64,000 nt of DNA, from contig JAWABL010000001.1 in assembly GCA_038884615.1 (NCBI GenBank), forward strand, positions 57,837 to 121,836. The letters run 5' to 3'. Numbering within the stretch: position 1 is the stretch's first letter; every line of letters begins with the position of its first letter. Shown here one piece after another: positions 18 to 45,610 of this stretch. Below the pieces are notes generated by a model that was given only the letters and a program-made list of their open reading frames with translations, did no database searches and was not told the DNA's origin. Both the position numbers and the translations under genes were made by a program. The DNA is from Candidatus Woesearchaeota archaeon (GTDB lineage Archaea; Nanobdellota; Nanobdellia; Woesearchaeales; DSVV01).

Positions 18-659
18 CTATTCAAAACCCATACTTTGTCCCCACGAAGAAGGCGCTCTGCTCCACTCTTTAGCAATGGTCACCTCCTCACCGGTGATAT
101 ACTTCTGTTTTTCTGCAACATCCAGAAGCGATGAAAAAGTTGTTAATGTAATAAGCTCGCACTCTGATTCTGCAAAAGTCTTTAATGCTGTATCCATCTC
201 ATATGAAAATATTGCCAAACAAGCAACAACCTCTCCGCCGGCGTCTCTTACGCCTCTAACAGCTACGATTGAACTTCCTCCTGTGCTTACAAGATCCTCG
301 ATGATAAGGACTTTCTGGCCTTTCTCAATCCTGCCTTCTATAAGGTTTTCCTTTCCATGCCCTTTTGCTGCAGAGCGCACATAAATCATAGGTTTTCCAT
401 ACTTTTCTGCAAGAAGCGCGGCCCACGCAATTGCTCCTGTAGCAACTCCTGCTATAACATCAAAACTCAGTTTTTTTCCATCAATAACCTCTGAGAACGC
501 GCCAACAATTTTCTTCCTCTCTGCTGGATAGCTCAAAAGAAGCCTATTATCTGTATATACTGGGCTGAGTATACCAGAGGCAAATCTATAAGGCCTTTTA
601 AGGTTTAGTGTGACTGCTCTTCTGTAAAGCAATATTTTCGCAACCTCTTCAGAAAGCAT
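18..659 (-). CDS. pyrE: orotate phosphoribosyltransferase
   Basis: 213-aa ORF with PRTase motif (VLIIEDLVSTGGS) and PyrE-like N-terminus; last gene of pyr operon, overlaps pyrC by 11 nt. Confidence 0.85.
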   Translation of the reverse strand: MLSEEVAKILLYRRAVTLNLKRPYRFASGILSPVYTDNRLLLSYPAERKKIVGAFSEVIDGKKLSFDVIAGVATGAIAWAALLAEKYGKPMIYVRSAAKGHGKENLIEGRIEKGQKVLIIEDLVSTGGSSIVAVRGVRDAGGEVVACLAIFSYEMDTALKTFAESECELITLTTFSSLLDVAEKQKYITGEEVTIAKEWSRAPSSWGQSMGFE

Positions 660-1830
660 AATAATTGACCTCCTTACCTTTTATAGAGTCATATATTTCG
701 CCGTCGTTAAAAACAAGGTTTCCGTTTACGATTGTCATAATAGGCCAGCCTTTTAGTTTTCTGCCGGCAAAAGGACTCCATTTGCACTTTGTAAACAACT
801 TCTCCTCATCTACTTCGCAAACGCGTTCCATGTCTATTATGGTGAGGTCTGCATCAAACCCTTCTCTTATGAATCCTTTATGCATTATTCCGAATGTTCT
901 CGCCGGGTTTTCACAACAGAGCTCAACAACCTTGCGAAGTGAAAATAAACCCTCGTTGACTGCGTTGAGCAGCAGTGGGAGAAGTGTCTCACAGCCTGGA
1001 ACACCATAAGGAAAATCTTTTGAGAGTTTTTCTCCTATTGTGTGCGGAGCGTGGTCTGAGCCTATTGTGTCAACAACACCTTCGTTTATTGCGTCATAAA
1101 GCACCAACTGATCAGCTATGGACTTTAAACCCGGCTTCATCTTGGTAAAGCCGTCCATGTCATCCTCCTCAGAAAGAAACAGATGATGCGGTGTCACTTC
1201 AACAAAGATGTTGCTTGACTTGTTTTCTCTAATAAAATCAATCTCATCAGCAGAACTTATATGGCATAGGTAGAGCCTTGCACCGCACTCTTGCGCTATA
1301 TGTATCGCCTTTTCAACCATGCTCCCTTCTGCGTGAACAGACACCATCTTTGAATCTGCAAACACCTGTTTTAACGCATCGTCGTCCTTGAACATTAGCA
1401 TTCCTGTAGAAGGATTCATAAACACCTTTGTTGATGCAATGTTTTTTGCTGCGCGTATTTGCTCTATGTTGTGTGGTGTTCCCGCGAAATGAAAACCATA
1501 GTTGACCACAGATTTCTCAGCAAGTTTTCTTTTCATTTCAAGCAACGCTGTCGTAGTTATCGGCGGCTCGTTGTTTGGCATATCAAGGACCGTGGTTATT
1601 CCACCCGCTGCTGCCGCAAAGCCTCCTGTCAAAAAATCTTCTTTTTGCTCACCGCCCGGCTCTCTAAAATGGACATGCGGATCAATTATACCAGGTATAA
1701 GATACCTACCTCCAGCATCTATGTAGTCATCATGCTGGTGCAGCATTCTTGCAATCTTTTTAATTCTACCACCCTCTATAAGAATATCTGCTTTTGTTCC
1801 ATCTGAAAGAACACAGTTTTTAATCAGCAT
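649..1830 (-). CDS. pyrC: dihydroorotase
   Basis: 393 aa; metal-binding DPHVHFREPG motif of the cyclic amidohydrolase/dihydroorotase family. Confidence 0.85.
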   Translation of the reverse strand: MLIKNCVLSDGTKADILIEGGRIKKIARMLHQHDDYIDAGGRYLIPGIIDPHVHFREPGGEQKEDFLTGGFAAAAGGITTVLDMPNNEPPITTTALLEMKRKLAEKSVVNYGFHFAGTPHNIEQIRAAKNIASTKVFMNPSTGMLMFKDDDALKQVFADSKMVSVHAEGSMVEKAIHIAQECGARLYLCHISSADEIDFIRENKSSNIFVEVTPHHLFLSEEDDMDGFTKMKPGLKSIADQLVLYDAINEGVVDTIGSDHAPHTIGEKLSKDFPYGVPGCETLLPLLLNAVNEGLFSLRKVVELCCENPARTFGIMHKGFIREGFDADLTIIDMERVCEVDEEKLFTKCKWSPFAGRKLKGWPIMTIVNGNLVFNDGEIYDSIKGKEVNYYAF

Positions 1831-2630
1831 CAGTACACCGTCCTATATGAATAATAGTCATTCAATGGCACCTTTTTTCCGGTCTTTAGCATTGCATATG
1901 CGCCGAAATCACTGAGCTTTGAAAGGTTCTCTGTACCAAGAACAGGCCCTTCTACGCAAATACGTATGTGGTTGCATGCACACTGTCCACAGATGCCTAT
2001 TGCGCAAACCATGAATCGCTCAAGCGACGCCTCACAGTAGATGTTGTGCAATTGGCACAAATCAAACACATTTTTCATCATTTGTTCTGGGCCGCATGTA
2101 TAAACCACTTCAAATTTTTTTGTTTTTAATATTTCTTTGAACCTTTCTGTAGCAAATCCCTTAAATCCAATGCTGCCGTCATCTGTACATATTTCTGTTT
2201 GTGGGAGAGAGTCGATTTTTTCGCTGAAAATAATTTTTTCTTTGCTTCTGAAACCGATTATTAAGGTCGGCTTATTAAGAGTGTCGATTAAAGGCATTAT
2301 AGCCGCAGCACCACATCCGCCTGCGACAACACATGCGCCATCCTTTATAATGGTAAAACCTTTTCCATAAGGTCCCCTGACGCCAAGTCTGTCGCCGGCT
2401 TTGAGCTTATGCAGCGCTTGTGTATAGCCCCCTCTGCGCTCTACGGTTATCCCAAAGACGCCCTTTTTATGATAGCTGAGCGAAAATGGCTTTTCGTCAA
2501 TATCAGGCAGCCAGAGCATCACAAACTGACCCGGTTTATAGTCAATGTCATGATTAAAATAAAAGGTCTTTGTCTCATTGTTTTCTTGCTTTATTTCTGC
2601 GATTTTAAGTACATATGGCATCTCAGCCAT
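1830..2630 (-). CDS. pyrK: dihydroorotate dehydrogenase electron-transfer subunit
   Basis: 266 aa; FAD/NAD-binding fold with C-terminal 2Fe-2S Cys cluster (CAIGICGQCAC); overlaps pyrD and pyrC ends. Confidence 0.8.
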   Translation of the reverse strand: MAEMPYVLKIAEIKQENNETKTFYFNHDIDYKPGQFVMLWLPDIDEKPFSLSYHKKGVFGITVERRGGYTQALHKLKAGDRLGVRGPYGKGFTIIKDGACVVAGGCGAAAIMPLIDTLNKPTLIIGFRSKEKIIFSEKIDSLPQTEICTDDGSIGFKGFATERFKEILKTKKFEVVYTCGPEQMMKNVFDLCQLHNIYCEASLERFMVCAIGICGQCACNHIRICVEGPVLGTENLSKLSDFGAYAMLKTGKKVPLNDYYSYRTVY

Positions 2631-3527
2631 GCGCTACACCTATTATATCAGTTAATGAACTATAACCGGAATTTTCAAGCCAATCATTTATCTCTTCTGA
2701 CACTTTTTGAAAAACATTGATACCCCTATAATATACTGCTGAGCCAATTCCAACTGCTGTTGCTCCGGCCATCATAAGTTCTATCGCGTCTCTGCCTGTC
2801 GTTACTCCACCAGTTCCAATAATAGGTATCTCCACTGACTCATATATTTCATACACACACCTTACTGCCACTGGGCGTATTGCAGGTCCGCTTAGCCCTC
2901 CGGTTTTGTATGAAAGCATGGGTTTTGCAACATCAATATTAATAAACATCCCTGGACCAAGCGTGTTTATCGCAGTTATTCCGTCTGCTCCGGCTTCCTC
3001 ACATGCCTTCGCCACTTCGGCTATATTCGGTGCTTGGGGAGTAAGCTTCGCAAAAACAGGCACTTTTGCTGCATTTTTTACTTCGCTTACAACATCATAG
3101 CATGCCTTTGTGCTTAATCCGAATATCATGCCATGTTCTTTCGTATTCGGGCAACTTAGATTAAGTTCTATTATAGAGGGATTACAAACCGACACTTTTT
3201 CTGCGAGCTGTACAAACTCATACCTGTCAGCTCCGAATATGCTTGCAATAATAGGCACATTCAAATCCTGCAAACTTCTTAGCTCTTCGAGCATTTCATC
3301 TATGCCAGGGTTTGTAAGTCCATAGCAGTTTGCGAGTCCATGTGCCCATTCAATAACTTTAGGGTTTCTGTGCCCCTCTCTTGGAAGCAGACCGGATGAT
3401 TTCAAGGTGAGCGCTCCTGCGCCGTTTCTTGCCACTTCGCGAAGCATAGATGAACCCATGCCAAGTATTCCTGAAGCAAGAATAGTGGGATTCTTCAGCC
3501 TATGCCCACATAATGTTACAGAGATGT

Positions 3528-3531
<4 letters not shown>
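2623..3531 (-). CDS. pyrD: dihydroorotate dehydrogenase catalytic subunit (class 1B)
   Basis: 302 aa TIM-barrel DHODH signature (GLTNPG, NLSCPN, GGV.TG). Confidence 0.85.
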
Positions 3532-4897
<1,366 letters not shown>

Positions 4898-4936
4898 CTA
4901 GTATAACAATTTAATTGTTTTTTAAATAACTTTTGG

Positions 4937-7900
4937 TTAATATTCATCCCATGCTTTAATCTCCAGGTCCTCCAGTCGTGTCTTTGAAATTGCATCAACA
5001 AAAAGCTTGGTCAAACTTGTATCTGTAAGAAGAGGGACTGCATGGTCCACTGCTTTCCGTCTTATAAGATACCCATCTGTCACCGCTTCTCTTTTTCCAT
5101 GGTCTGGTATCATTATAACAAAATCAAGCTGTTTTTTTTCTATCATTGTGAGTGCATTTTCTTTTTGTGTGTTGTGCGCTTTTAATACCATCTGGCACAC
5201 AAGCCCATTTTTTCTTAGAAACTCAAATGTATGCTCTGTAGCAAAAAGATTAAATCCCATCGCATAAAGCTTTTTTATAGAATCTAAAAGGCGAAATTTG
5301 TTCTCCTCGTCGCTTATGCTCAAAAGCACATTCTTCTTAGGAAGCTGCAATCCCGTCGCAAGTATGCTTTTTAAAAACGCACTATTAAGATTATCTCCAA
5401 GGCACGCCACTTCGCCTGTTGAGGCCATTTCAACTCCTATAATCGGATCTGCCATCTTAAGTCGCGTAAAGGAAAACTGTGGTGATTTAACTCCGACATA
5501 GTCCATGTCAAGAGTAGATATTCCATACCTTACCTTCTTGCTTAGCATTGCCCTCACGGCAAGATCTATAAAGTTTTGCTTTGAAACCTTTGAAACAAAC
5601 GGAAAGCTTCTAGACGCCCGAAGGTTACATTCTATAACTTTTATCTCATTTTCTTTTGCGAGGTATTGTATATTGAATGGTCCTGTAATGTTAAGCGATT
5701 GCGCGATCATCTGTGTTATTTTTTTAACTCGCCTTGCGGTTTCAAGATAGGTGTTGTTTGGCGGAAAGATTATTGTCGCGTCACCGCTATGTACCCCTGC
5801 TTTCTCAACATGCTCTGACAATGCCCAAATAACAATGCTGCCATTTTTTGCCACTGCATCGACCTCTATTTCCTTGGCATTCCTAATAAACTTGCTTATT
5901 ACAACAGGATGCTCCTTGTTGACCTCGGCTGCATTCGAGAGATATTCTTTAAGTTCAGAATCATTGGCTGCGACACGCATTGCCGCACCGCTCAAAACAT
6001 AACTAGGTCTAACAAGGACAGGATAGCCGACTTTTTGCGAAAATAGTTGTGCGTCGTCAAGATTCGTAAGCTCTTTCCATTCCGGCTGGTCTACGCCAAT
6101 TTCGTCAAGAAGTTTTGAAAACTTGTATCTGTCTTCCGACCTGTCTATATCTTTTGGATGAGTACCTATAATTTTTGCGCCTGCAAAATGAAGCTTTAAA
6201 GCAAGATTGTTTGGTATCTGTCCACCCATAGAAATTATTATCCCATCTGGCTGCTCCTTATCATAGATGTCCATCACAGATTCTATTGAAAGCTCGTCAA
6301 AATACAATCTATCGCATATATCATAGTCTGTGCTAACAGTTTCTGGATTGTAATTTATCATTATTGTTTCATAGCCCAGCTTCCTTAAGCTTATCACTGC
6401 GTTTACACAGCACCAGTCAAACTCTACAGAACTACCTATCCTGTATGCTCCGCTTCCAAGTACTATAACGCTTTTTCTGCGACTGAAAGTCACATCGTCT
6501 TCGCTCCCATTATATGTCAAATAAAGATAGTTTGTCTTTGCCGGATATTCTGCGGCAAGAGTATCAATTTGCTTTATGCATGGCAGAATACCAAAAGATT
6601 TTCTTTTTTCTTTCACTTCCTTCGCTTGACATCCAAGACATATCCCTATTTGTTTGTCTGAAAATCCGCGGCTTTTTGCTTTAAGAAAAACCTCCCTATG
6701 CACAGTCTCAAGAGTGTACTGCCTTAGCTCTTTCTCTGTATTTACAATATTAGATATTTTATGTAAGAACCATTTGTCAATTTTTGAAAGGGAGTATATT
6801 TGATCAGTGCTATAACCTTGTTTAAGCGCCTGGGCAATCGCAAAGACTCTTTCATCGGTAGGATTTGCAAGCTCTTCATCGATGTCCTTACATAGGATAT
6901 TATCATTACAGACAACTCCATTTGCTCCTATCTCAAGCATTCTAATTGCCTTTTGAAGCGCCTCTTCAAACTTTCTGCCTATCGCCATGACTTCTCCAAC
7001 AGACATCATACTGGAGCCTATTTTCTTGCTTACCCTAACAAACTTTTTTAAGTCCCATCTTGGAATTTTGACAACACAATAGTCAAGCGCAGGTTCAAAA
7101 CATGCCGTGGTTATTTGTGTGATTGAATTTCTCAGCTGAGTCAAAGTATAGCCAATAGATAGCTTTGCCGCAATGAAAGCAAGTGGATACCCAGTAGCTT
7201 TTGAGGCTAGTGCAGAGCTCCTGCTAAGCCGCGCGTTTACCTCTATAACTCTATACTCGCTGTTTTTTGGGTTTAATGCAAACTGGATATTGCATTCGCC
7301 GATTACTCCAAGATGACGAATTGCCTTTATCGAGACCTCTCTTAGCATATGATACTCGTAATTTGTTAGTGTCTGGCTTGGGGCAACAACTATACTTTCT
7401 CCGGTATGTATCCCCATAGGGTCCATGTTCTCCATGTTACAGACAGTTATGCAATTATCCATACGGTCCCTCACAACCTCATACTCTATTTCCTTCCATC
7501 CATGAAGGTACTCTTCAACAAGTAACTGTTGTGTGTATGAAAATGCTTTACTTAGCATATCCTTTAGTGATTGCTCATTGTATGCAACACCAGAACCAAG
7601 ACCGCCAAGCGCATATGCAATCCTTACCATTACTGGATAACCTATCCTTTGTGCAATTTCTATCGCCTGGTCTATATTTCTAGCTGCTTCGCTTCGTGGG
7701 GTTTTTACACCAATTTCATCAAGTTTTCTTACAAAAAGTTCCCTATCTTCTGTATCAATTATGGTTTTTACAGGTGTTCCCAGCACCTTCACATTGTTTT
7801 TTTGTAAAATACCTGAATTATAGAGCTCTACGCCACAGTTAAGCGCGGTTTGACCTCCAAAAGAAAGAAGTATCCCATCCGGCTTTTCCTTTTCGATTAC

Positions 7901-8161
7901 GCGCTCAACAAAATAAGCTGTTATCGGAAGAAAATACACCTTGTCTGCGAGGTGCTCTGAAGTTTGTATTGTAGCGATATTTGGATTAACAAGGACTACC
8001 TTTATGCCCTCTTCTTTTAATGCCTTTATCGCTTGGCTACCAGAATAGTCGAACTCACCAGCCTCGCCTATTTTAAGCGCGCCAGAGCCAAGAACAATCA
8101 CCTTTTTAGGTCTTTCTATGCTTCCCTTATCACACTTCGCACAAAACTCTTTTCTTTTCAT
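4937..8161 (-). CDS. carB: carbamoyl-phosphate synthase large subunit
   Basis: 1074 aa with duplicated ATP-grasp halves, typical CarB length and motifs. Confidence 0.95.
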   Translation of the reverse strand: MKRKEFCAKCDKGSIERPKKVIVLGSGALKIGEAGEFDYSGSQAIKALKEEGIKVVLVNPNIATIQTSEHLADKVYFLPITAYFVERVIEKEKPDGILLSFGGQTALNCGVELYNSGILQKNNVKVLGTPVKTIIDTEDRELFVRKLDEIGVKTPRSEAARNIDQAIEIAQRIGYPVMVRIAYALGGLGSGVAYNEQSLKDMLSKAFSYTQQLLVEEYLHGWKEIEYEVVRDRMDNCITVCNMENMDPMGIHTGESIVVAPSQTLTNYEYHMLREVSIKAIRHLGVIGECNIQFALNPKNSEYRVIEVNARLSRSSALASKATGYPLAFIAAKLSIGYTLTQLRNSITQITTACFEPALDYCVVKIPRWDLKKFVRVSKKIGSSMMSVGEVMAIGRKFEEALQKAIRMLEIGANGVVCNDNILCKDIDEELANPTDERVFAIAQALKQGYSTDQIYSLSKIDKWFLHKISNIVNTEKELRQYTLETVHREVFLKAKSRGFSDKQIGICLGCQAKEVKEKRKSFGILPCIKQIDTLAAEYPAKTNYLYLTYNGSEDDVTFSRRKSVIVLGSGAYRIGSSVEFDWCCVNAVISLRKLGYETIMINYNPETVSTDYDICDRLYFDELSIESVMDIYDKEQPDGIIISMGGQIPNNLALKLHFAGAKIIGTHPKDIDRSEDRYKFSKLLDEIGVDQPEWKELTNLDDAQLFSQKVGYPVLVRPSYVLSGAAMRVAANDSELKEYLSNAAEVNKEHPVVISKFIRNAKEIEVDAVAKNGSIVIWALSEHVEKAGVHSGDATIIFPPNNTYLETARRVKKITQMIAQSLNITGPFNIQYLAKENEIKVIECNLRASRSFPFVSKVSKQNFIDLAVRAMLSKKVRYGISTLDMDYVGVKSPQFSFTRLKMADPIIGVEMASTGEVACLGDNLNSAFLKSILATGLQLPKKNVLLSISDEENKFRLLDSIKKLYAMGFNLFATEHTFEFLRKNGLVCQMVLKAHNTQKENALTMIEKKQLDFVIMIPDHGKREAVTDGYLIRRKAVDHAVPLLTDTSLTKLFVDAISKTRLEDLEIKAWDEY

Positions 8162-9249
8162 ACATTAATCATCTCTCTAAATTTATCAAACAAAAATGCA
8201 GTGTCAACCGGACCTGGTGTAGCTTCAGGGTGAAACTGTACCCCGCAAAATGGAAGAGACGCATGCCTTATCCCTTCGTTTGTCCCGTCGTTTGCATTGA
8301 CAAACCATTCTTCCCATCCACTAGGCAGTGTTTCTTTGTCAACTGCATATCCATGATTCTGGCTTGTGATATAACATCTGCCTGTCTTGACATCAATACA
8401 CGGTTGGTTCTGGCTTCTATGTCCGTATTTAAGCTTGTAAGTGTTTGCGCCGGCAGCAAGGGCAAGAAGCTGATTTCCAAGGCATATACCCATTATAGGC
8501 ACCTTTTTCTTCATTGCTTGCCTAAGTGACTCTATTGTTGTGACGCACATTTTTGGGTCGCCCGGCCCATTTGATACAAAAACACCATCATAATCCAAAC
8601 TGGAGATATCATAGTTCCATGGCACTCGCATGACTTTTATTCCACGAAGAACTAGTGAGCGGATTATGTTGTATTTTGCTCCGCAATCAAGAAGAATCAC
8701 CTTTTTTTCTCCGCTGCCGTATGTTTCCACCCTTTTAACAGAGACTTCAGCAACAAGATTCATATTATTTGGATTTTCAAATGGCACATCATCTTCATGA
8801 ACATTTTCGTAAACAAGTTTACCCAGCATAACACCTCTCTCCCTGAGCCGTTTTGTAACCGCACGTGTATCAACACCGCATATTGCAGGGATATTGTGCT
8901 CGAGTAACCAATCTGAAAGAGATTTCTCAGACCTCCAATGACTAAATTCCTTTGAATAATCAGACACTACAAGTCCTTTTATATAGATTCTGTTGGACTC
9001 AAAATTTTTCAAAAATCCAAGCTCGTCATAATCATTGCCAGGAACACCATAATTGCCTATAAGCGGATAAGTCAGTACTAGGATTTGCCCTTCATAGCTT
9101 GGGTCTGTAAGAGACTCAGGATACCCTATCATCCCCGTATTAAAGACAACCTCTCCAGAAACATTCTTTTCTGCTGCAAATGAAAATCCCTCAAAAGAAG
9201 AACCATCCTCAAGGATTAATTTTGCTTTTTTAAAGATGTTAAAAGACAT
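8158..9249 (-). CDS. carA: carbamoyl-phosphate synthase small (glutaminase) subunit
   Basis: 363 aa; class-I glutamine amidotransferase catalytic Cys (GICLGNQ) and His/Glu; 4-nt overlap with carB. Confidence 0.9.
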   Translation of the reverse strand: MSFNIFKKAKLILEDGSSFEGFSFAAEKNVSGEVVFNTGMIGYPESLTDPSYEGQILVLTYPLIGNYGVPGNDYDELGFLKNFESNRIYIKGLVVSDYSKEFSHWRSEKSLSDWLLEHNIPAICGVDTRAVTKRLRERGVMLGKLVYENVHEDDVPFENPNNMNLVAEVSVKRVETYGSGEKKVILLDCGAKYNIIRSLVLRGIKVMRVPWNYDISSLDYDGVFVSNGPGDPKMCVTTIESLRQAMKKKVPIMGICLGNQLLALAAGANTYKLKYGHRSQNQPCIDVKTGRCYITSQNHGYAVDKETLPSGWEEWFVNANDGTNEGIRHASLPFCGVQFHPEATPGPVDTAFLFDKFREMINV

Positions 9250-11241: not shown

Positions 11242-11274
11242 CTTTAAATAGTATTCACTGATTCTTGCAGGATT

Positions 11275-11432
11275 GAGGGAGTGCCGGAGTGGCCAAATGA
11301 AGTCTTTATGATTTCAGGCTATACGGGACAGACTCAAGATCTGTTGGCTCAGTGCCTACTAGGGTTCGAAAGAAGCATCGGCAAACAAACAGCGCAATTG
11401 CGCCGTGCTTGGCGAACATCCCTACTCCCTCA
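11275..11432 (+). tRNA. tRNA-Leu (anticodon CAA) with two probable non-canonical introns (D-loop and T-loop)
   Basis: 7-bp acceptor GAGGGAG/CTCCCTC + discriminator A; anticodon arm ACAGA-CUCAAGA-UCUGU (11327..11343); long variable arm; T-stem TAGGG...CCCTA with TTCGAA T-loop interrupted by ~50 nt; 158 nt total versus ~87 nt mature. Confidence 0.7.
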
Positions 11433-11435
11433 ATT

Positions 11436-12542
11436 TCAATTATTTTTTCTTTTTATCCTAAGAAAATCAAACTTCTGTTTTCCTTGCCAAACTGATTTTT
11501 CAGAAACAAGCAAAAAATTCTCAGACTCTAAAAGCATTTTTTTCAGGAGCATGCTGTTTTGTAGGCATACTGCGATTATGCCATCCTTTGTAAGCACAAA
11601 GTCTGCTTGATAGAAAAACTCGCGGTATAGGTTCTGCAACTCTTTCTCGCCGGTTGTTTTTGAAGGCGATGGTGGATGAGTCACTAGTTTATCAACACTT
11701 CCTTTAGAAATCTTTGTATCAAGCCATTCAACATCTACTTTTGAGAAGGTGATATATTTATCAACGCCGGCAATTGCCGCGTTTTTTCTTGAGGAGGTTA
11801 TAAACCTAAGCTGATTGTCATAGCCAATTATACTTTCTTTAGATATTGGTGTAATTCTTTTATCCTTAGGAATCTTACAGATAAATTTTTCTTTTTTAAA
11901 AAAATGAGGAGAAATTCCTGTTGCGAAGAGCGCGGCTTCAATAGGAATTGTCCCAGCCCCGCAAAAGGGATCTAGGAGAACCCCATTTTTTTTATAGCCA
12001 GAAAACCGCATGAGTGAGTATGCTGTTATCGCGCTTAGTGTTGAAGGATGGGAAAAAACTTTATAGTCTCTTTTAGAGAGATCAAAACCGGCAAAATCAA
12101 TCCCTGTTAAACAGCGTGAATTATTAATATAAACAAGCACAACACAATCTGGTTGTACAAGACTTACTTTTGAGCCAACCAACTGTGCGATTATCTCTCC
12201 AACGCCTGATGCAATGTCCTGACTTGAATAATCATGAGCGCCTTCTCTTATACAGTTTACTCTGAAGGTTTTTCCTTTAATAGCAGAAACCGCATTCGTG
12301 TTCAATATCTGCTTTATTGATACAATCGACTCTTCAAGGTTATTATTAACACTACACTCTCCAATAACTCCAATGACATTTAATGCTGAGTGGGCATTGT
12401 ATGCAAGAGTACATATCTCATTTGCATCAGCTTCAAAAAAAACAACTTTTTCTGTAATTATAGAGGGTTTTTTTAGGATTTCTTTTATTTCAAGCGCTGT
12501 AAACTCCTCAACTCCCTGTTCTGTAAATACTGCTGATTTCAT
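11436..12542 (-). CDS. THUMP-domain RNA methyltransferase (Trm14/RlmL-like tRNA m2G methyltransferase)
   Basis: 368 aa; N-terminal THUMP-like region followed by Rossmann methyltransferase with DPFCGAGT (motif I) and THPPSP (motif IV, DPPY-like) as in N2-guanine/N6-adenine methyltransferases. Confidence 0.6.
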   Translation of the reverse strand: MKSAVFTEQGVEEFTALEIKEILKKPSIITEKVVFFEADANEICTLAYNAHSALNVIGVIGECSVNNNLEESIVSIKQILNTNAVSAIKGKTFRVNCIREGAHDYSSQDIASGVGEIIAQLVGSKVSLVQPDCVVLVYINNSRCLTGIDFAGFDLSKRDYKVFSHPSTLSAITAYSLMRFSGYKKNGVLLDPFCGAGTIPIEAALFATGISPHFFKKEKFICKIPKDKRITPISKESIIGYDNQLRFITSSRKNAAIAGVDKYITFSKVDVEWLDTKISKGSVDKLVTHPPSPSKTTGEKELQNLYREFFYQADFVLTKDGIIAVCLQNSMLLKKMLLESENFLLVSEKSVWQGKQKFDFLRIKRKNN

Positions 12543-12628
12543 ACAAAGATAGAATCGCGGCGCCTTTTATAAACATAACTATAAAAAAGGGCATTAAAGC
12601 AAGCAATCTAGAACAATTTTTTAATTTG

Positions 12629-13855
12629 TTAGATGTAGTTTGTGATTTTTGTCTGACATTGCCGCTTTAAAAGGACGCTTGATTTTATAAGCCCGTTTAT
12701 GTCAAGTCCAAACTTTTTCTTAAATAGCGCAATAGCGTAATCAAGCATAAGCTGTTTTGTATCAAACAAAAGTGGTTTTGTTGCAAAGGTTTTTCTTGCG
12801 GCCTCTCGCGTCACCCATACCCCAAGAGGAACAAAGTATTCGCCGGTAATCACCCTTATAACTATTGCACCCGCCTGCTTTTGCAAGTCTCTGAGCTTTT
12901 CAAGCAACGCCAATCTTACAGAGTAGTATCCGCCAGCGCAGTTTTCTGCATAGCTTTTTCTTCCATCATATCCTTCATAATCGGTTGTGTATTCAAGGCT
13001 TTGGCTTTTGTTCCAACTTGCGTTTGGCATGTAGGTTTCAAACAGTTCGTAGCTCCATATTTCCGGAAAGAGCATAAAAAGGTAATAGTTTCCAAGATAA
13101 GAACCAAAAAAAGACATATTATCTTCAATTGGAGGATAGTCCTTAATTTCAGATAACATTTGCTTTGCAAGCATATCATCTGTGGCTGTAATGCTCCATC
13201 TTGTTGGAACAAGTTTTCTATTAGATTTTAAACCTAAGCTTCCTATAGAGAAGAGCTTTGCGATAAAATTTTCATCATAGCCAGACTCGAACAACTGCCA
13301 TGCCGCACCCATTGCTTTGAAATCAGTATCGTCAACAATCTGCTCAACTATCCTGTCAATTTTCGGGTTTGAAGTGATATCAGCAAAAACAAGCTTTGCG
13401 CTTGGACCATATGGCGGTGAAGAAGGGTCGGTAGTAAGCGAAAATTTAGGTTTTTCTTCAAGTTTTATTTCAACATCCACGGGCTTTGAAGCCATGGCGA
13501 CCTGCCTACCAATATCAACAAGCCTATTGTTTTTATGTATGTCTCCCTTTGAGAGCGAGTTAATAAGAGAGCTCCTTAGGTCAACAATTTGTTGTATTCC
13601 ATAGTCCGCCGACGCCCAATAAGAAGGCGAATCATACTGCCATGCATCTGCTTTTGGCTCATGCAAGCTAAGAAGCCCTATACTGACATTAGGATAGCCG
13701 ATTCTACCGACAAAGGGCGCAGGAGATTGTGTTGCAAACTCGCTTGAATTTAAAGAATGGCTTATCTTAAACAAAGAAGACGCTTTGATAAGATGTGGGC
13801 AGAATGCCCTTCCACAGTACCCCCTCCCCTTGCAACGGACGCAGATAATCCTCAT
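12629..13855 (-). CDS. Nre-family protein (archaeal putative DNA-repair protein with N-terminal C4 zinc finger)
   Basis: Start moved to internal ATG (MRIICVRCKGRGYCGRAFCPHL) matching the Nre N-terminal Cys4 signature; ~408 aa typical for NreA/NreB; family assignment from memory of Pfam Nre_N/Nre_C. Confidence 0.5.
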   Translation of the reverse strand: MRIICVRCKGRGYCGRAFCPHLIKASSLFKISHSLNSSEFATQSPAPFVGRIGYPNVSIGLLSLHEPKADAWQYDSPSYWASADYGIQQIVDLRSSLINSLSKGDIHKNNRLVDIGRQVAMASKPVDVEIKLEEKPKFSLTTDPSSPPYGPSAKLVFADITSNPKIDRIVEQIVDDTDFKAMGAAWQLFESGYDENFIAKLFSIGSLGLKSNRKLVPTRWSITATDDMLAKQMLSEIKDYPPIEDNMSFFGSYLGNYYLFMLFPEIWSYELFETYMPNASWNKSQSLEYTTDYEGYDGRKSYAENCAGGYYSVRLALLEKLRDLQKQAGAIVIRVITGEYFVPLGVWVTREAARKTFATKPLLFDTKQLMLDYAIALFKKKFGLDINGLIKSSVLLKRQCQTKITNYI

Positions 13856-13960
13856 ACTGCTGTAATGACATAGTAATATTTTAATTTTTGGGAGAATAAA
13901 AAAATATAAGAAAAGATATATAAAGGTGTTGAATATCAAAACACGCTGGAGGTGGGTCTT

Positions 13961-14023
13961 ATGAAAATGAGATACAGAGACGATGATGAAGACACTGATG
14001 ATGATGAAGAGGACGACTGGTAA
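13961..14023 (+). CDS. possible 20-aa acidic micro-protein (MKMRYRDDDEDTDDDEEDDW)
   Basis: ATG preceded by GGAGGTG Shine-Dalgarno motif at -13..-7; tiny ORF in an otherwise empty 260-bp intergenic gap; coding status unproven. Confidence 0.2.
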   Translation: MKMRYRDDDEDTDDDEEDDW

Positions 14024-14117
14024 TTAAGCATAGAATAAAAGCAATAGGAAAGATAACAAGGAGGTTATCTAAAAATAGTCATCTTATATTGTTTTATTAT
14101 AGATTATAACTATTTGA

Positions 14118-15179
14118 TTATACCCATTTCTTTTTTCTGAAATATCTAAGCATAAGAAAGGCCACTATAGCCATAAACAGCATTATAAGAGGGTAACCGG
14201 CTTTCCACTTAAGCTCTGGCATGTATTCAAAATTCATACCATATATCCCTACTATAAAAGTAAGAGGAATAAATATTGTGGCGATAATAGTTAGAACCTT
14301 CATTATTTCATTAAGTCGGTTGCTAATAATTGATAAGTACACTTCAAGCATCCCTCCAAGTATATCCCTATATGACTCTATCGCGTCTATTATTTGAATT
14401 ATGTGGTCGTAAACATCGCGAATGTAAATCTGAGTAGATTCTTTCAAAATTCTAGAGTCTGACCTCTGCAATGAAGAAAGCAACTCTCTTATTGGCCAGA
14501 TAGATTTACGCAGGAATATCATAAGGTGCTTAATATTGTTTATGGTCTGCATGGTTTTCTGGGTCGGATTGTTTGTAAGTTCTTCTTCCAAAGCCTCTAT
14601 TCTTTCCTCGCACTTTTCAAGAACAACAAAATAGTAGTCAACTATTGAATCAATAATTGAGTATGCAAGATAGTCTGCGCCGGATTTTCGTACCCTGCTT
14701 AAAGGGTTTCTAAGCCTTTGCAATAGCGGATCAAACAGATTAGTTTTTTGCTCGACAACAGAAACAACAAAATTTTTACCGAGAATAATGCTAATCTGAT
14801 CTGAAGAAACTTGATCATTTTGGTTGAACTCAAGCGCCTTTAGCACTATATAGATATAGTTCTCAAAAATTTCAACCTTTGGCCGCTGGTCTGTGTTAAG
14901 GATATCCTCAACAATGAGCTGGTGTAGCCCCATACTCTTGCCAAGCTTTGCAAGCGCATCAACATCGTACAACCCTTCTGCGTGTATCCATGTAATGCTC
15001 GGCGATTTTTTATATTTTATTACCTCTTCTGGTTTTAATATCTCCTTTTCAACAAGCTGTTTTTCATCAAAATCATAAAGAAAAAATTTTGTATGGGTGC
15101 TTTTTTTCTCTCCTATATGCACAAGGCTTCCTGGCGGAAGTCCTGCTTTATGTGATCTCTTTTTTATGATGCGTTGCAT
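14118..15179 (-). CDS. corA: magnesium/cobalt transporter CorA
   Basis: YGMNF signature (GMNFEYMPE) followed by two C-terminal transmembrane helices; start moved to internal ATG (MQRIIKK) so it no longer overlaps the upstream gene. Confidence 0.8.
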   Translation of the reverse strand: MQRIIKKRSHKAGLPPGSLVHIGEKKSTHTKFFLYDFDEKQLVEKEILKPEEVIKYKKSPSITWIHAEGLYDVDALAKLGKSMGLHQLIVEDILNTDQRPKVEIFENYIYIVLKALEFNQNDQVSSDQISIILGKNFVVSVVEQKTNLFDPLLQRLRNPLSRVRKSGADYLAYSIIDSIVDYYFVVLEKCEERIEALEEELTNNPTQKTMQTINNIKHLMIFLRKSIWPIRELLSSLQRSDSRILKESTQIYIRDVYDHIIQIIDAIESYRDILGGMLEVYLSIISNRLNEIMKVLTIIATIFIPLTFIVGIYGMNFEYMPELKWKAGYPLIMLFMAIVAFLMLRYFRKKKWV

Positions 15180-15204
15180 AGATACGATAATACTAAGAAA
15201 GTAT

Positions 15205-15723
15205 TTAAATTTTTGGTAATACATCCTTGTCTTTTGGGAGCGGCAGAAAAATCCGCTCAATTTCTGAAATTGTGACCTTTCCATCTATTTTATGCGGCAA
15301 AGTAAAGGGAGATGCGTAAGAAGCAAGCCAGGGAAAGTCGTCTGCTCTTAAAACCAGTAAAAAAAGCGAGTTGCGGTCTTCTAGATAATCGCGATAATTG
15401 CATTTCCCATCTTCGCCATGTGTCACACACTCGTCCCATTCTCGATGATCATACACGCTGCACCGAGATTTAAGAACAGGCAAGCCATCAATCTCAAAAG
15501 TCTGCTCAAGATTCTTGCAAGCAAAGGATTTTCTGACTATTTTATACTCCTTCAGATATGGCGAGTAGCGCAAAAGCCAAAGTTGTCTTTCTCTATCCCA
15601 TTTCAGTGGCCAAGGGTCAATTATGTCTTCTGGAAAAAAACAGCACTCTGCATCTCCACATACCCCGCCAATTTTTATATAATCCTTCTTAAGTATATAT
15701 GGCTTTATTCCTAGAGTTTCCAT
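15205..15723 (-). CDS. cysteine-rich hypothetical protein (possible YkgJ/UPF0153-like metal-cluster protein)
   Basis: 172 aa; C-x4-CC near N-terminus (VCGDAECC) and CSVYDHREWDEC resembling the C.IY..RP..C motif of the CxxCxxCC family; weak. Confidence 0.35.
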   Translation of the reverse strand: METLGIKPYILKKDYIKIGGVCGDAECCFFPEDIIDPWPLKWDRERQLWLLRYSPYLKEYKIVRKSFACKNLEQTFEIDGLPVLKSRCSVYDHREWDECVTHGEDGKCNYRDYLEDRNSLFLLVLRADDFPWLASYASPFTLPHKIDGKVTISEIERIFLPLPKDKDVLPKI

Positions 15724-18301: not shown

Positions 18302-18481
18302 TGGACCTGGAGGGATTCGAACCCTCGACCCCCAGCTTGCTTCTGGTTTAGAAGGCTGGTGCCCTATGTTCCCAGTCAAAGCAGTGCTGAAGCTTCCCAG
18401 CTTACTTTCCTGCTACTTATTTAAATTTTAGACAATTCTTGTTGTCTAAAAAAAAAGACCGCCAGGCTAGGCTACAGGTCC
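18302..18481 (-). tRNA. tRNA with a ~95-nt D-loop intron and a short canonical intron (anticodon most parsimoniously UCU, Arg)
   Basis: minus strand: acceptor GGACCUG/CAGGUCC + A73; T-arm GAGGG-UUCGAAU-CCCUC; D-stem GCCU/GGGC; anticodon stem CCAGC/GCUGG enclosing CUUCUA + 11 nt; the large insert contains a perfect 9-bp hairpin (TTTAGACAA...TTGTCTAAA). Confidence 0.6.
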
Positions 18482-18710: not shown

Positions 18711-18833
18711 GCGGGGGTAGCCAAGCGGCTAAGGCGATCGGCTGCAGCAGGTGCTGTAAAAAGCGGTATTATGAGCGTTATGCGATGAAATGAAGATACC
18801 GATTATTCGAGGGTTCAAGTCCCTCTCCCCGCT
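18711..18833 (+). tRNA. tRNA (probably Cys, anticodon GCA) with ~50-nt intron at the canonical 37/38 position
   Basis: acceptor GCGGGGG/TCCCCGC; T-arm GAGGG-UUCAAGU-CCCUC; anticodon stem AUCGG...CCGAU enclosing CUGCAG + ~50 nt; TATA GTTATAAAAAT ~30 nt upstream. Confidence 0.65.
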
Positions 18834-24444: not shown

Positions 24445-25170
24445 ATGAAGATGCTTGTTGGATGGGATGGAAGAAAATTTTTTTTTAGTGGCAAAGACAT
24501 CCACACAAAGAATGGTTTTATCAGGAAGGAAGAAATTGAGGCGGCGCGAGAAGGAAGCATTTTAAAGACTAACATTGGTCATGAGATGTTTGTTGTTGAA
24601 GCATCGTTTGTTGATGTATTCAAAAGGATAAAAAGGTCGCCACAGATAATTCCGCTGAAAGATATAGGGCTCATAGTTGCAGAGACGGGCATAGGCAAAA
24701 AAAGCGTTGTTCTTGATGCAGGTAGCGGAAGCGGAGCGACTGCGTGTTTTATAGCAAACATAGCAAAAAAAGTTTATACTTACGAAATAAGAGACGATTT
24801 TTATAAAATAGTCAAGGAAAACATCGCGCGATTAGAATTAAAAAATGTTGTTGCAAAAAAAGGGGATGTTTACAAAAAGATAAACGAAAAAAATATTGAT
24901 GTTATAATTCTTGATCTTCCATCTCCTTGGGAGGCAATTGAAACCTGCAAAAAATCACTTAAGATAGGTGGGTTTCTTGTTAGCTATTCTCCTACGGTTC
25001 CACAAGTGGCGGATTTTGTTTCGGCGATCAAAAGTAATAGCTCATTCATATTTCTAAGAACTATTGAGGTTATTGAAAGGGACTGGGAGTATGAAGGAAG
25101 AAAAATAAGACCGAAATCTCAGCAAATAGGACATAGCGGTTTTTTAACATTCTGCAGAAAGATACATTGA
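24445..25170 (+). CDS. trmI: tRNA (adenine57/58-N1)-methyltransferase TrmI
   Basis: 241 aa; SAM-binding LDAGSGSG and DLPSPW catalytic motif of the TrmI/Gcd14 family. Confidence 0.7.
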   Translation: MKMLVGWDGRKFFFSGKDIHTKNGFIRKEEIEAAREGSILKTNIGHEMFVVEASFVDVFKRIKRSPQIIPLKDIGLIVAETGIGKKSVVLDAGSGSGATACFIANIAKKVYTYEIRDDFYKIVKENIARLELKNVVAKKGDVYKKINEKNIDVIILDLPSPWEAIETCKKSLKIGGFLVSYSPTVPQVADFVSAIKSNSSFIFLRTIEVIERDWEYEGRKIRPKSQQIGHSGFLTFCRKIH

Positions 25171-44597: not shown

Positions 44598-44698
44598 TTA
44601 GGTGACCCTGCATCAGCACGGGCCAGGCGAGCGTTTATAAGTTGTGTAATTTAAACAAACAACAAGGTATATATAAGGATCATCTGTTCTTTTGTTTT

Positions 44699-45610
44699 AT
44701 GAAATGCGTAAAATGTAATAGAAAAGCGGTGTTTCTAAGACCAAGCTATTGCAAAACACATTTTCTCGCGTATATAGAAAAAAAGGTTATGGACACCATA
44801 AAAAGATACAGGCTACTAGAGAAAACAGGAAAGGTTATAGTTGCCGCATCGGGCGGGAAGGACAGCATCAGCTGTGCATACATACTAAAAAAACTGGGGT
44901 ATAATATTGAGGTGCTAGCTATTGACGAGGGCATTGCCGGTTACAGAAACCACACGATTTCTGACCTGAGACGATTCTGCAAAGAAAAGAAAATAAAACT
45001 TAATATTATAGATATTGGTAAAACAATGGGAAGGGGGTTAGATTCGCTAGTTAAAGAAAGTGGGCTTGGTGCGTGTACATTATGCGGTGCGATACGAAGG
45101 TATGCAATAAATAGGTGGGCAAAAAAGTTAGGAGCATGTGTTGTGGCAACAGGACATAATCTTGATGATGAGGTACAAGCAATTATGATGAATTTTTTAA
45201 GAAATAATCTCGCGTTCTCAGCACGCATAGGGCCTGTCACTGGACTAAAAAACAATCAAGGGTTTATAAGAAGAGTTAAACCTCTTTATCTTTGCACAGA
45301 GAAAGAAATTGCTGCGTATGCGTTTTTGCGTTCTTTCAGAATTGGGTATAACATCTGCCCATACACAAATACTTCTTATAGATATCACATACAAGAGCTA
45401 TTAAATGATATTGAAAAAAAAATTCCAAACACCAAAAAAAACATCATAAATAATTTTTTAAGCATACTCCCAATACTAAAGAAGAGATATGAAACAAAGG
45501 AAGGCGCTAATATCTGCAAGAGTTGCGGTGAACCTTGTAGCAAGAGCGTATGTAGAGTGTGCAGTATTCTCGCAAAAAATTTAAATAAACCGTCGGTATC
45601 TGCTTACTAA
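44699..45610 (+). CDS. ttuA: tRNA 2-thiolation protein TtuA/NcsA family (PP-loop ATPase with N- and C-terminal zinc fingers)
   Basis: SGGKDS PP-loop; CxxC N-terminal finger; Fe-S-ligand Cys (CTLCGAIRR ... GHNLDDE); C-terminal CKSCG...CRVC; start moved to ATG at 44699. Confidence 0.75.
   Translation: MKCVKCNRKAVFLRPSYCKTHFLAYIEKKVMDTIKRYRLLEKTGKVIVAASGGKDSISCAYILKKLGYNIEVLAIDEGIAGYRNHTISDLRRFCKEKKIKLNIIDIGKTMGRGLDSLVKESGLGACTLCGAIRRYAINRWAKKLGACVVATGHNLDDEVQAIMMNFLRNNLAFSARIGPVTGLKNNQGFIRRVKPLYLCTEKEIAAYAFLRSFRIGYNICPYTNTSYRYHIQELLNDIEKKIPNTKKNIINNFLSILPILKKRYETKEGANICKSCGEPCSKSVCRVCSILAKNLNKPSVSAY

What the first reader, a model, noticed from the sequence alone, without database searches (positions are those of the whole stretch)
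11275..11432. tRNA-Leu(CAA) interrupted by two non-canonical introns
The acceptor, anticodon, variable and T-stem elements are all identifiable, but the gene is 158 nt long. The TTCGAA T-loop is separated from its 3' stem strand (CCCTA) by ~50 nt, and the D-loop is ~25 nt too long. Introns at D-loop and T-loop positions require relaxed-specificity splicing endonuclease and are characteristic of only a few archaeal lineages (Thermoproteales, some DPANN/Korarchaeota).
Basis: partly seen in the sequence, partly recalled or inferred. Interest (0 to 1): 0.55.

Follow-up and report, generated by a model that had tools for sequence, protein, structure and literature searches.

The report
Leucine tRNA gene with two introns
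This is a real archaeal leucine tRNA gene (anticodon CAA) interrupted by two short introns in unusual places, the D-loop and the T-loop; this kind of gene is already known, standard tRNA finders miss it, and here it sits in a Woesearchaeota genome whose relatives have the same gene without introns.

Summary
Window 11275-11432 (+) is a 158-nt tRNA-Leu(CAA) gene made of three exons (11275-11296, 11323-11370, 11419-11432). It has a 26-nt intron in the D-loop (11297-11322, about position 21/22) and a 48-nt intron in the T-loop (11371-11418, position 59/60).

- **Tool detection.** ARAGORN and Rfam do not call the native sequence. ARAGORN calls tRNA-Leu(CAA) only when both inserts are removed.
- **Spliced product.** It is 84 nt, which is the commonest length among 80 unique intron-free orthologues. 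It is 81-92% identical to them and forms all 23 cloverleaf pairs.
- **Independent model.** A covariance model built only from intron-free orthologues hits the locus (47 bits, E 3e-9). It places the D-loop insertion exactly between GGCCAA and CGGG.
- **Junctions.** Both fold into relaxed bulge-helix-bulge motifs (HBh' and hBH-like). The geometric cut sites coincide with the boundaries set by the orthologues.
- **Source.** The window comes from a Candidatus Woesearchaeota MAG (DPANN).
- **Precedent.** Introns at the same two sites occur singly in a Methanomassiliicoccus MAG and an Undinarchaeota MAG. The 59/60 site is also experimentally documented in ARMAN-2.

Verdict: a new member of a known kind, an annotation catch of modest interest. 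A second doubly interrupted gene, tRNA-Arg(TCT), lies at 18302-18481 (-).

The parts
11243..11250 (+). TATA-like box TTTAAATA, about 28 nt upstream of the mature 5' end (putative archaeal promoter)
   Evidence: Read directly. Intron-free orthologues in Woesearchaeota loci carry similar A/T boxes 30-37 nt upstream. Promoter function is inferred.
11275..11296 (+). Exon 1: acceptor 5' strand GAGGGAG, U8 G9, D-stem 5' strand CCG, D-loop through G18 G19 C C A A
   Evidence: Identical to the D-arm 5' part of intron-free orthologues L018 and L031.
11297..11322 (+). Intron 1, 26 nt, D-loop (about 21/22). The equivalent cut 11298-11323 gives the same product because of the A repeat.
   Evidence: The covariance model places a 27-versus-1 nt insertion between GGCCAA and CGGG. 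BHB geometry supports the same site.
11291..11323 (+). BHB motif 1 (HBh' type). Central helix GGCC 11291-94 / GGCT 11317-20. 5' bulge AAA 11295-97. Intron hairpin TGAAGTC 11298-304 / GATTTCA 11310-16 (7 bp) with loop TTTAT. 3' site ATA 11321-23 next to the D-stem.
   Evidence: MFE folds. H=4 bp and h'=7 bp; 2.5e-5 of 200,000 intron shuffles do as well.
11323..11370 (+). Exon 2: D-stem 3' strand, anticodon arm (anticodon CAA at 11335-11337), long variable arm, T-stem 5' strand, T-loop TTCGAA
11371..11418 (+). Intron 2, 48 nt, T-loop position 59/60. The equivalent cut 11370-11417 gives the same product.
   Evidence: In the ARAGORN deletion scan, the best 3' deletion among the 40 highest-scoring candidates listed starts at 11370 or 11371 and is 48 nt long. 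Orthologues read TTCGAAT-CCnnn.
11360..11424 (+). BHB motif 2 (hBH-like). Outer helix is the T-stem TAGGG 11360-64 / CCCTA 11420-24. Central helix TTCG 11365-68 / CGAA 11413-16. Canonical 3-nt 3' bulge CAT 11417-19. The 5' site lies in a 4x2 internal loop (AAAG 11369-72 / GG 11411-12). It is closed by AAGCA 11373-77 / TGCTT 11406-10 and CGGC 11379-82 / GCCG 11402-05.
   Evidence: MFE folds. H=4, h=5, relaxed h'=6; 1.6e-4 of 200,000 intron shuffles do as well.
11419..11432 (+). Exon 3: T60, T-stem 3' strand CCCTA, acceptor 3' strand CTCCCTC, discriminator A73. No encoded CCA.
11443..11454 (+). T-rich tract (TTTTTTCTTTTT), likely transcription stop. It overlaps the 3' end of the convergent THUMP methyltransferase gene.
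   Evidence: Read directly. Terminator function is inferred.

Best explanation
This is a functional archaeal tRNA-Leu(CAA) gene of a Woesearchaeota (DPANN) organism, transcribed as a 158-nt precursor with two introns. Each intron folds with neighbouring exon sequence into a relaxed bulge-helix-bulge motif.

**Shown**
- In the D-loop, G18 G19 C C pairs with the 3' end of the intron. A 7-bp intron hairpin follows the 5' bulge.
- In the T-loop, T54-G57 pairs with the 3' end of the intron on top of the T-stem. This leaves a canonical 3-nt bulge at the 3' site.
- The predicted cut sites give an 84-nt class II tRNA with anticodon CAA, a long variable arm and A73.

**Inferred**
- The archaeal tRNA splicing endonuclease (EndA) cuts after the second nucleotide of each bulge, after 11296 and 11322 and after 11370 and 11418.
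- An RtcB-type ligase joins the three exons, and CCA is added after transcription.
- Because one half of each motif is relaxed, the host enzyme must be a broad-specificity EndA. The literature describes such enzymes for DPANN: alpha4 with an extra 'L3' loop, (alpha-beta)2 or epsilon2.
For: 1. The native sequence is not called as a tRNA. It is called only after both inserts are removed.
2. The spliced product is 84 nt, the commonest length of 80 unique intron-free orthologues from 143 genome and metagenome loci. It is 81-92% identical to them. Its D-arm TGCCGGAGTGGCCAAACGGG is identical to that of L018 and L031.
3. All 23 cloverleaf pairs form in the spliced product. The family pairs in 99.4% of cells, with compensatory changes at 11 of 23 pairs.
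4. Model R1, built without the window sequence, hits the locus at 44-47 bits (E 5e-10 to 3e-9). It places the D-loop insertion exactly at the predicted site.
5. The unconstrained MFE fold shows the cloverleaf plus both BHB-like motifs, z = -4.5.
6. BHB geometry at the orthologue-defined boundaries is rare in shuffled introns: 2.5e-5 and 1.6e-4.
7. The same geometric rule recovers the correct junctions in independent cases. L036 has an HBh' intron at the same D-loop site. L002 has a strict hBHBh' intron at 59/60. The 11-nt intron of the window's tRNA-Arg also fits.
8. The organism is a Woesearchaeota MAG.
9. Literature: a 59/60 hBH intron was cleaved in vitro by ARMAN-2 EndA (PMC3239211). D-loop HBh' introns and broad-specificity EndAs in DPANN are described in PMC5829648.
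10. The gene plus a TATA-like box fills the 194-nt intergenic gap between two protein genes.
Against: - There are no RNA data, so splicing is inferred.
- The EndA gene is not in the 64-kb window. A motif search and Pfam scans of 23 ORFs found none. The enzyme's type and specificity in this organism are therefore unknown.
- Neither BHB is strict. The 3' site of intron 1 lies in a 3x4 internal loop, and the MFE fold closes it further. The 5' site of intron 2 lies in a 4x2 internal loop.
- With lax criteria, BHB-like geometry is common: 34 chance sites in 300 nt. The motif alone would not be convincing without the orthologue boundaries.
- No close relative carrying the same introns was found, so there is no covariation evidence for the intron helices themselves.
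- Whether the genome has another, intact tRNA-Leu(CAA) cannot be told from the window.
Confidence: 0.9

Rival explanations
1. It is a decaying tRNA-Leu pseudogene that has picked up two insertions and is no longer processed into a working tRNA. A tRNA-Leu(UAA) or a second CAA copy elsewhere covers UUG codons.
For: None of 106 metagenome loci and roughly 15 genome loci of the same tRNA family carries these inserts. Both BHB motifs are relaxed. The rest of the genome cannot be inspected.
Against: All 23 stem pairs, U8, G18G19, the TTCGAAT loop, A73 and the anticodon loop are intact after removal of the inserts. Both inserts are positioned and shaped so that BHB cut sites restore the orthologue sequence to the nucleotide (P 2.5e-5 and 1.6e-4 in shuffles). 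Random insertions would not do this. Two other tRNA genes in the window are also intron-bearing, which suggests an organism that routinely splices.
Confidence: 0.05
2. The gene is real, but the exact architecture differs. Splice sites could be shifted by a nucleotide, or processing could be ordered so that one intron depends on removal of the other, or could follow a non-EndA route.
For: The A repeats at both introns make two cut registers indistinguishable by product. ARAGORN scores do not discriminate among D-loop deletions of 25-29 nt. The MFE fold closes the 3' bulge of intron 1.
Against: Orthologues fix the product sequence, and the covariance model fixes the insertion point. Only the 26-nt and 48-nt deletions restore the orthologue sequence and modal length. 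No other tRNA intron-removal pathway is known in archaea (established knowledge; PMC5829648, PMC3239211).
Confidence: 0.04
3. It is not a tRNA at all: a different small RNA, part of the 109-aa ORF at 11281-11610, or an assembly artefact.
For: An ORF of 109 aa overlaps the locus. Weak sub-threshold Rfam matches occur here (RsaOG, Plastid-rpl20, SNORD116; E 0.3-5).
Against: The Rfam matches are all far below their gathering scores. The ORF runs antisense through the end of the well-supported THUMP methyltransferase gene. The family-specific model hit has E 3e-9. A misassembly would not create two BHB-compatible inserts.
Confidence: 0.01

Closest known systems
ARMAN-2 (Ca. Micrarchaeum) pre-tRNA-Cys(GCA) with a 13-nt intron at 59/60, relaxed hBH motif, cleaved in vitro by epsilon2 EndA (PMC3239211)
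   Same: Same insertion site (59/60 in the T-loop). Same kind of relaxed motif, with the T-stem as the outer helix. DPANN host.
   Different: Here the intron is 48 nt and has a closing helix beyond an internal loop. It lies in tRNA-Leu and is combined with a second intron. The host's EndA type is unknown.
Methanopyrus kandleri pre-tRNA-Glu(UUC) with a non-canonical HBh' intron in the D-loop plus a canonical intron (PMC5829648)
   Same: D-loop intron of HBh' type in a gene with two introns.
   Different: The second intron here is also non-canonical (T-loop) rather than at 37/38. The organism is mesophile-type and low in GC, and belongs to DPANN.
Multiple-intron tRNAs of Thermoproteales and other TACK archaea, with up to three introns at many non-canonical positions (summarised in PMC3239211 and PMC5829648)
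   Same: Several short BHB introns at non-canonical positions. Missed by standard tRNA finders.
   Different: Different phylum. The host enzyme there is (alpha-beta)2 with the crenarchaeal loop. In this Woesearchaeote the enzyme is not identified.
tRNA-Leu(CAA) of a Methanomassiliicoccus MAG (L036) and of an Undinarchaeota MAG (L002), found here
   Same: L036 has a 23-nt HBh' intron at the identical D-loop site, with a central helix formed by G18G19-N-C. L002 has a 23-nt strict hBHBh' intron at 59/60.
   Different: Each has only one of the two introns. The intron sequences are unrelated to those in the window.

Membership tests
Archaeal tRNA gene with BHB-type (EndA-spliced) introns at non-canonical positions | Removal of the inserts restores a complete cloverleaf tRNA | tested here: met
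   ARAGORN calls tRNA-Leu(CAA) only after both deletions. All 23 pairs form. The product is 81-92% identical to intron-free orthologues.
Archaeal tRNA gene with BHB-type (EndA-spliced) introns at non-canonical positions | A bulge-helix-bulge or relaxed (HBh'/hBH) motif at each exon-intron boundary, with a 4-bp central helix and cuts in 3-nt bulges | tested here: met
   Intron 1 has H 4 bp, a canonical 5' bulge and h' 7 bp, with a relaxed 3' site. Intron 2 has h 5 bp, H 4 bp and a canonical 3' bulge, with the 5' site in a 4x2 loop.
Archaeal tRNA gene with BHB-type (EndA-spliced) introns at non-canonical positions | Introns located outside position 37/38 | tested here: met
   D-loop (about 21/22) and T-loop (59/60). 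The covariance-model alignment and orthologue alignment agree.
Archaeal tRNA gene with BHB-type (EndA-spliced) introns at non-canonical positions | The host encodes a splicing endonuclease able to cut relaxed motifs | not testable with these tools
   No EndA was found among the window ORFs examined. The rest of the MAG could not be retrieved.
Archaeal tRNA gene with BHB-type (EndA-spliced) introns at non-canonical positions | Spliced mature tRNA and excised (circular) introns observed | not testable with these tools
   No transcript data are available.
Class II tRNA-Leu | Leu anticodon, long variable arm, and A73 discriminator | tested here: met
   CAA at 11335-37. The 15-nt variable region has a 3-bp stem. 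A at 11432.
Split or permuted tRNA gene | Exons encoded at separate loci or in permuted order | tested here: not met
   All three exons are collinear within 158 nt.
Group I intron in tRNA-Leu (bacterial/organellar type) | A self-splicing intron of well over 200 nt in the anticodon loop | tested here: not met
   The inserts are 26 and 48 nt and lie in the D- and T-loops. No Rfam intron family matches.

The most novel reading that the evidence does not exclude
This Woesearchaeota lineage may have undergone a recent burst of tRNA intron gain. All three tRNA genes in the 64-kb window are interrupted, two of them twice, including a 92-nt D-loop intron. More than 100 orthologous tRNA-Leu(CAA) genes from related DPANN contigs have neither intron. 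ARAGORN calls canonical-position introns in only about 10% of the tRNA genes on the retrieved loci, most of which are such contigs. If true, this organism would be a DPANN counterpart of Thermoproteales. It would offer a natural case for studying how BHB introns are gained at recurrent hot spots (the same two sites are hit independently in Methanomassiliicoccus, Undinarchaeota and ARMAN-2). It would also help show which EndA changes permit that gain.
Probability: 0.35. Interest if true: 0.5.

Novelty: new member of a known kind. Interest (0 to 1): 0.3.

Why it matters
- **Annotation.** This tRNA is invisible to ARAGORN and to the Rfam tRNA model. The genome would therefore appear to lack tRNA-Leu(CAA). 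The literature notes that incomplete tRNA sets in DPANN probably hide such genes (PMC5829648). The tRNA-Arg(TCT) gene 7 kb away is mis-called as tRNA-Lys with a 101-nt intron.
- **Biology.** The gene implies that this Woesearchaeote has a splicing endonuclease that accepts relaxed motifs. Introns at two known hot-spot positions were gained in a lineage whose relatives lack them. This adds a data point to the co-evolution of EndA specificity and tRNA gene disruption.
- **Limits.** It does not open a new question or reveal a new mechanism.

Tried and rejected
1. ARAGORN in default, -i, -i0,120 and -ps modes on the native locus gave no call. The Rfam gathering and E-value scans gave no tRNA hit at the locus, only chance-level matches.
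2. ARAGORN scores could not fix the D-loop splice site, because many 25-29 nt deletions score 116-118. The boundary was fixed from orthologues, the covariance model and BHB geometry instead.
3. I looked for close relatives carrying the same introns and found none.
   - The genome contigs pattern scan returned 37 loci.
   - Synteny walking from the adjacent THUMP methyltransferase (best homologues 44-52% identical) reached L144-L146. CorA-Nre-THUMP is conserved there, but no tRNA-Leu is adjacent.
   - There is therefore no covariation test of the intron helices.
4. Retrieving the window's own contig through its protein failed, as the protein is not on record.
5. Intron sequences were searched against the window and all loci. 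One search listed only the 40 hits for intron 1, and all of those were chance-length. Hits for intron 2 and for the Cys and Arg introns fell outside the printed output and were not examined. No C/D-box motif was seen by eye.
6. The EndA search in the window (catalytic-motif regex, Pfam on 23 ORFs) found nothing.
7. A lax BHB scan alone is not specific, giving 34 sites in 300 nt, so I did not rely on it by itself.
8. The supplement of PMC5829648 was sought for Woesearchaeota tRNA counts but is not held.

Full report

Yes.
- The acceptor stem is a perfect 7 bp, GAGGGAG (11275-81) with CTCCCTC (11425-31), followed by discriminator A (11432).
- U8 is present.
- The anticodon arm is ACAGA-CTCAAGA-TCTGT, with anticodon CAA at 11335-37.
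- The variable arm has a GGC/GCC stem.
- TAGGG-TTCGAA lies at 11360-70, and the complementary CCCTA only at 11420-24.

The gene is 158 nt, against about 84 nt for a class II tRNA.

Standard tools do not see it. ARAGORN finds nothing in the window without intron mode and nothing at this locus in any intron mode. Rfam's tRNA model finds only another gene, at 18711-18833. At the locus itself Rfam reports only chance-level matches to unrelated families.

**2. In-silico splicing**

I deleted every combination of a D-region segment (0 or 12-41 nt) and a T-region segment (0 or 35-59 nt). This gave 173,250 distinct products, all of which I passed to ARAGORN.
- No product with only one deletion, or none, was called a tRNA.
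- 3,390 double deletions were called tRNA-Leu(CAA).
- Among the 40 highest-scoring candidates listed, the top-scoring 3' deletion starts at 11370 or 11371 and is 48 nt long. The two starts give the same product.
- The D-loop deletion is not resolved by ARAGORN. Deletions of 25-29 nt score 116-118.

**3. Exact anatomy**

| Part | Coordinates | Length |
|---|---|---|
| Exon 1 | 11275-11296 | 22 nt |
| Intron 1 | 11297-11322 | 26 nt |
| Exon 2 | 11323-11370 | 48 nt |
| Intron 2 | 11371-11418 | 48 nt |
| Exon 3 | 11419-11432 | 14 nt |

The spliced product is 84 nt:
GAGGGAGTGCCGGAGTGGCCAAACGGGACAGACTCAAGATCTGTTGGCTCAGTGCCTACTAGGGTTCGAATCCCTACTCCCTCA

Other features, read directly:
- A TATA-like box, TTTAAATA, lies at 11243-50, about 28 nt upstream.
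- A T-rich tract follows at 11443-54.
- No CCA is encoded.
- The gene and its promoter fill the 194-nt gap between a 116-aa ORF (ends 11241) and a convergent THUMP/UPF0020 methyltransferase gene (stop at 11436).

**4. Bulge-helix-bulge motifs**

The unconstrained minimum-energy fold of the 158-nt precursor reproduces the acceptor, D, anticodon, variable and T stems. It folds both inserts as extensions of the D- and T-loops. The energy is -62.3 kcal/mol, against a shuffle mean of -45.1. The z-score is -4.5, and 0 of 200 shuffles fold as well.

Intron 1 is of HBh' type.
- The central helix is G18G19CC (11291-94) paired with GGCT (11317-20).
- A canonical 3-nt 5' bulge, AAA, lies at 11295-97.
- A 7-bp intron hairpin follows, TGAAGTC/GATTTCA.
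- The 3' site, ATA (11321-23), lies between the central helix and the D-stem. It faces four unpaired D-loop bases, and the MFE fold closes it further.

Intron 2 is hBH-like.
- The T-stem (5 bp) is the outer helix.
- T54-G57 (11365-68) pairs with CGAA (11413-16).
- A canonical 3-nt 3' bulge, CAT, lies at 11417-19.
- The 5' site lies in a 4x2 internal loop, closed by helices of 5 and 4 bp.

Cutting after the second bulge nucleotide gives exactly the exon boundaries above. When only the intron is shuffled, geometry as good as observed occurs in 2.5e-5 of trials for intron 1 and 1.6e-4 for intron 2.

One caveat applies. With lax thresholds, BHB-like geometry is frequent: 34 sites in 300 nt. The motif is convincing only because it coincides with independently defined boundaries.

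**5. Comparative evidence (the independent boundary definition)**

A scan of one genome per GTDB species for the anticodon arm plus GGGTTCGAA returned 37 loci. A metagenome scan for the D-loop and anticodon arm, allowing 0-30 nt at the D-loop site, returned 106 loci.

These define a tRNA-Leu(CAA) family typical of Woesearchaeota and Nanoarchaeia MAGs. It has 80 unique intron-free sequences, 58 of them exactly 84 nt long.
- My spliced product is 81-92% identical to them.
- Its D-arm is identical to that of L018 and L031.
- Its T-loop, TTCGAAT, is the family consensus.
- In an alignment of 81 sequences, all 23 cloverleaf pairs form in the spliced product.
- The family pairs in 99.4% of cells and shows compensatory double changes at 11 of 23 pairs. 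The D and anticodon stems were fixed by the search pattern, so they are uninformative.

I built a covariance model from 30 of the intron-free sequences, without the window sequence.
- Its best hit in the whole window is 11275-11383, at 47 bits and E 3.4e-9.
- With filters off, its alignment shows an insertion of 27 nt, against 1 nt in the model, exactly between GGCCAA and CGGG.
- The alignment then runs cleanly to TTCGAA, where it loses the T-stem 3' strand and the acceptor. This is what a 48-nt insert at that point would cause.

None of the 106 metagenome loci has either intron, so the introns are specific to this lineage.

Two genome loci carry one intron each at the very same sites.
- L036, a Methanomassiliicoccus MAG, has a 23-nt HBh' intron after GGTCAA (H 4 bp, h' 6 bp).
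- L002, an Undinarchaeota MAG, has a 23-nt strict hBHBh' intron at 59/60 (h 5, H 4, h' 5).

The same geometric rule gives the orthologue-consistent junction in all of these cases, which validates the rule I used.

**6. Organism and context**

- The adjacent THUMP protein is 100% identical to NCBI MEM4267262.1, named 'MAG: THUMP domain-containing protein [Candidatus Woesearchaeota archaeon]', on a 122,117-bp contig. The next-best homologue is only 52% identical, so no close relative has been sequenced.
- There is partial synteny with L021, Woesearchaeota CG1_02_57_44. There, a homologue of the upstream 116-aa ORF lies about 700 nt upstream of an intron-free tRNA-Leu(CAA).
- CorA-Nre-THUMP is conserved in L144 and L145, but without the tRNA.
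- An archaeal SRP RNA lies at 60831-61105.

**7. Mechanism**

Shown: the gene structure, the fold, the junction geometry, and the identity of the product with orthologues.

Inferred from established knowledge of archaeal tRNA splicing:
- EndA recognises each BHB and cuts in the bulges, leaving 2',3'-cyclic phosphate and 5'-OH ends.
- An RtcB-type ligase joins the exons and circularises the introns.
- RNase P trims the 5' leader; its p30 subunit is encoded at 45610-46185.
- CCA is then added.

Each motif has one relaxed half, so the enzyme must tolerate HBh' and hBH substrates.
- PMC5829648 reports that only EndAs with an extra specific loop do this efficiently.
- The same paper reports that DPANN lineages, including a Woesearchaeote and a Pacearchaeote, carry EndAs with an 'L3' loop that go with increased tRNA gene disruption.
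- PMC3239211 shows in vitro cleavage of a 59/60 hBH intron by ARMAN-2 epsilon2 EndA.

The EndA of this organism is not in the window.

**8. Comparison with what is known; novelty**

Non-canonical and multiple tRNA introns, the 59/60 site and D-loop HBh' introns are all documented (PMC3239211, PMC5829648). This gene meets every sequence-level criterion of that class. The enzyme and the spliced RNA could not be tested.

It is therefore a new member of a known kind. Four things are mildly new.
- The combination of a D-loop and a T-loop intron, with none at 37/38, in tRNA-Leu(CAA) of a Woesearchaeote.
- More than 100 orthologues lack both introns.
- The same two sites are used independently in distant archaea.
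- The neighbouring tRNA genes are also interrupted.

**9. Other tRNA genes in the window**

- 18711-18833 (+) is tRNA-Cys(GCA) with a 50-nt intron at 37/38 (Rfam 47.9 bits; ARAGORN). My strict scan finds only 3 of 4 central-helix pairs there (and by eye).
- 18302-18481 (-) has an intact T-arm and acceptor stem. ARAGORN -i calls it tRNA-Lys(ttt) with a 101-nt intron. By comparison with an intron-free tRNA-Arg(TCT) in L056, with BHB geometry and with in-silico splicing, I read it as tRNA-Arg(TCT).
- On that reading it has a 92-nt D-loop intron (18369-18460; central helix CCTG/TGGG, h' 3 bp, weak). It also has an 11-nt mini-intron at 37/38 (18338-18348; H 4, h 5).

So three of three tRNA genes in the window carry introns. 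On the 146 retrieved loci, ARAGORN of 232 tRNAs with an intron at the canonical position.

**10. Caveats**

- No transcript data are available.
- There is no covariation evidence for the intron helices, because no relative shares them.
- The A repeats make two cut registers equivalent.
- Sprinzl numbering of the D-loop site (21/22) depends on how the 20a and 20b positions are assigned.
- The rest of the genome is unseen, so a second tRNA-Leu(CAA) copy and the EndA type remain unknown.

Noticed in passing
window 18302-18481 (- strand): A second doubly interrupted tRNA gene, 180 nt. I read it as tRNA-Arg(TCT), with a 92-nt D-loop intron (18369-18460, weak HBh'-like motif) and an 11-nt mini-intron at 37/38 (18338-18348; H 4 bp, h 5 bp). 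ARAGORN -i mis-calls it tRNA-Lys(ttt) with a 101-nt intron, and Rfam misses it. An intron-free orthologue is in L056. The D-loop splice sites are tentative.
   Followed up: partly
window 18711-18833 (+): tRNA-Cys(GCA) with a 50-nt intron at the canonical 37/38 position (Rfam 47.9 bits). The central helix at the ARAGORN junction has only 3 of 4 pairs by my simple rule, so this motif too may be relaxed. It is transcribed divergently from the tRNA-Arg gene 229 nt away.
   Followed up: partly
L036 (Methanomassiliicoccus MAG CAJKXZ010000001.1) and L002 (Undinarchaeota MAG CAZFHY010000008.1): Their tRNA-Leu(CAA) genes each carry one 23-nt intron at exactly the two sites used in the window. L036 has the D-loop site after GG-N-CAA (HBh'). 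L002 has the T-loop 59/60 site (strict hBHBh'). The intron sequences are unrelated, which suggests recurrent insertion hot spots.
   Followed up: partly
L078/L097, L083, L061/L063/L094, L075/L077 (metagenome loci), just downstream of their tRNA-Leu(CAA) genes: Direct repeats of the last 10-20 nt of the tRNA (for example AATCCTCTCACCCACAT in L078) recur 50-80 nt downstream. In L024/L049, L057, L076 and L042 the acceptor 5' strand recurs upstream. These could be att-site remnants of integrated elements or partial duplications.
   Followed up: no
window 18-9249 (- strand): A near-complete de novo pyrimidine cluster: a phosphoribosyltransferase, an amidohydrolase (dihydroorotase-like), dihydroorotate dehydrogenase, PyrI, PyrB, CarB and CarA. 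This is notable biosynthetic capacity for a DPANN (Woesearchaeota) genome.
   Followed up: partly
window 11436-15284 (- strand); L144, L145: The gene order CorA - Nre - THUMP/UPF0020 methyltransferase is conserved in distant relatives (44-48% identity). The tRNA-Leu gene next to it is not conserved there.
   Followed up: yes
window 60831-61105 (- strand): Archaeal SRP RNA (Rfam RF01857, 159.9 bits). This confirms the archaeal origin of the window.
   Followed up: no
window 24445-25170 (+), 45610-46185 (+), 44642-45610 (+): tRNA-processing and modification genes lie nearby: a GCD14/TrmI-like tRNA m1A58 methyltransferase, RNase P subunit p30, and a PP-loop ATPase (TilS/QueC-like). No splicing endonuclease is among the ORFs tested.
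   Followed up: partly
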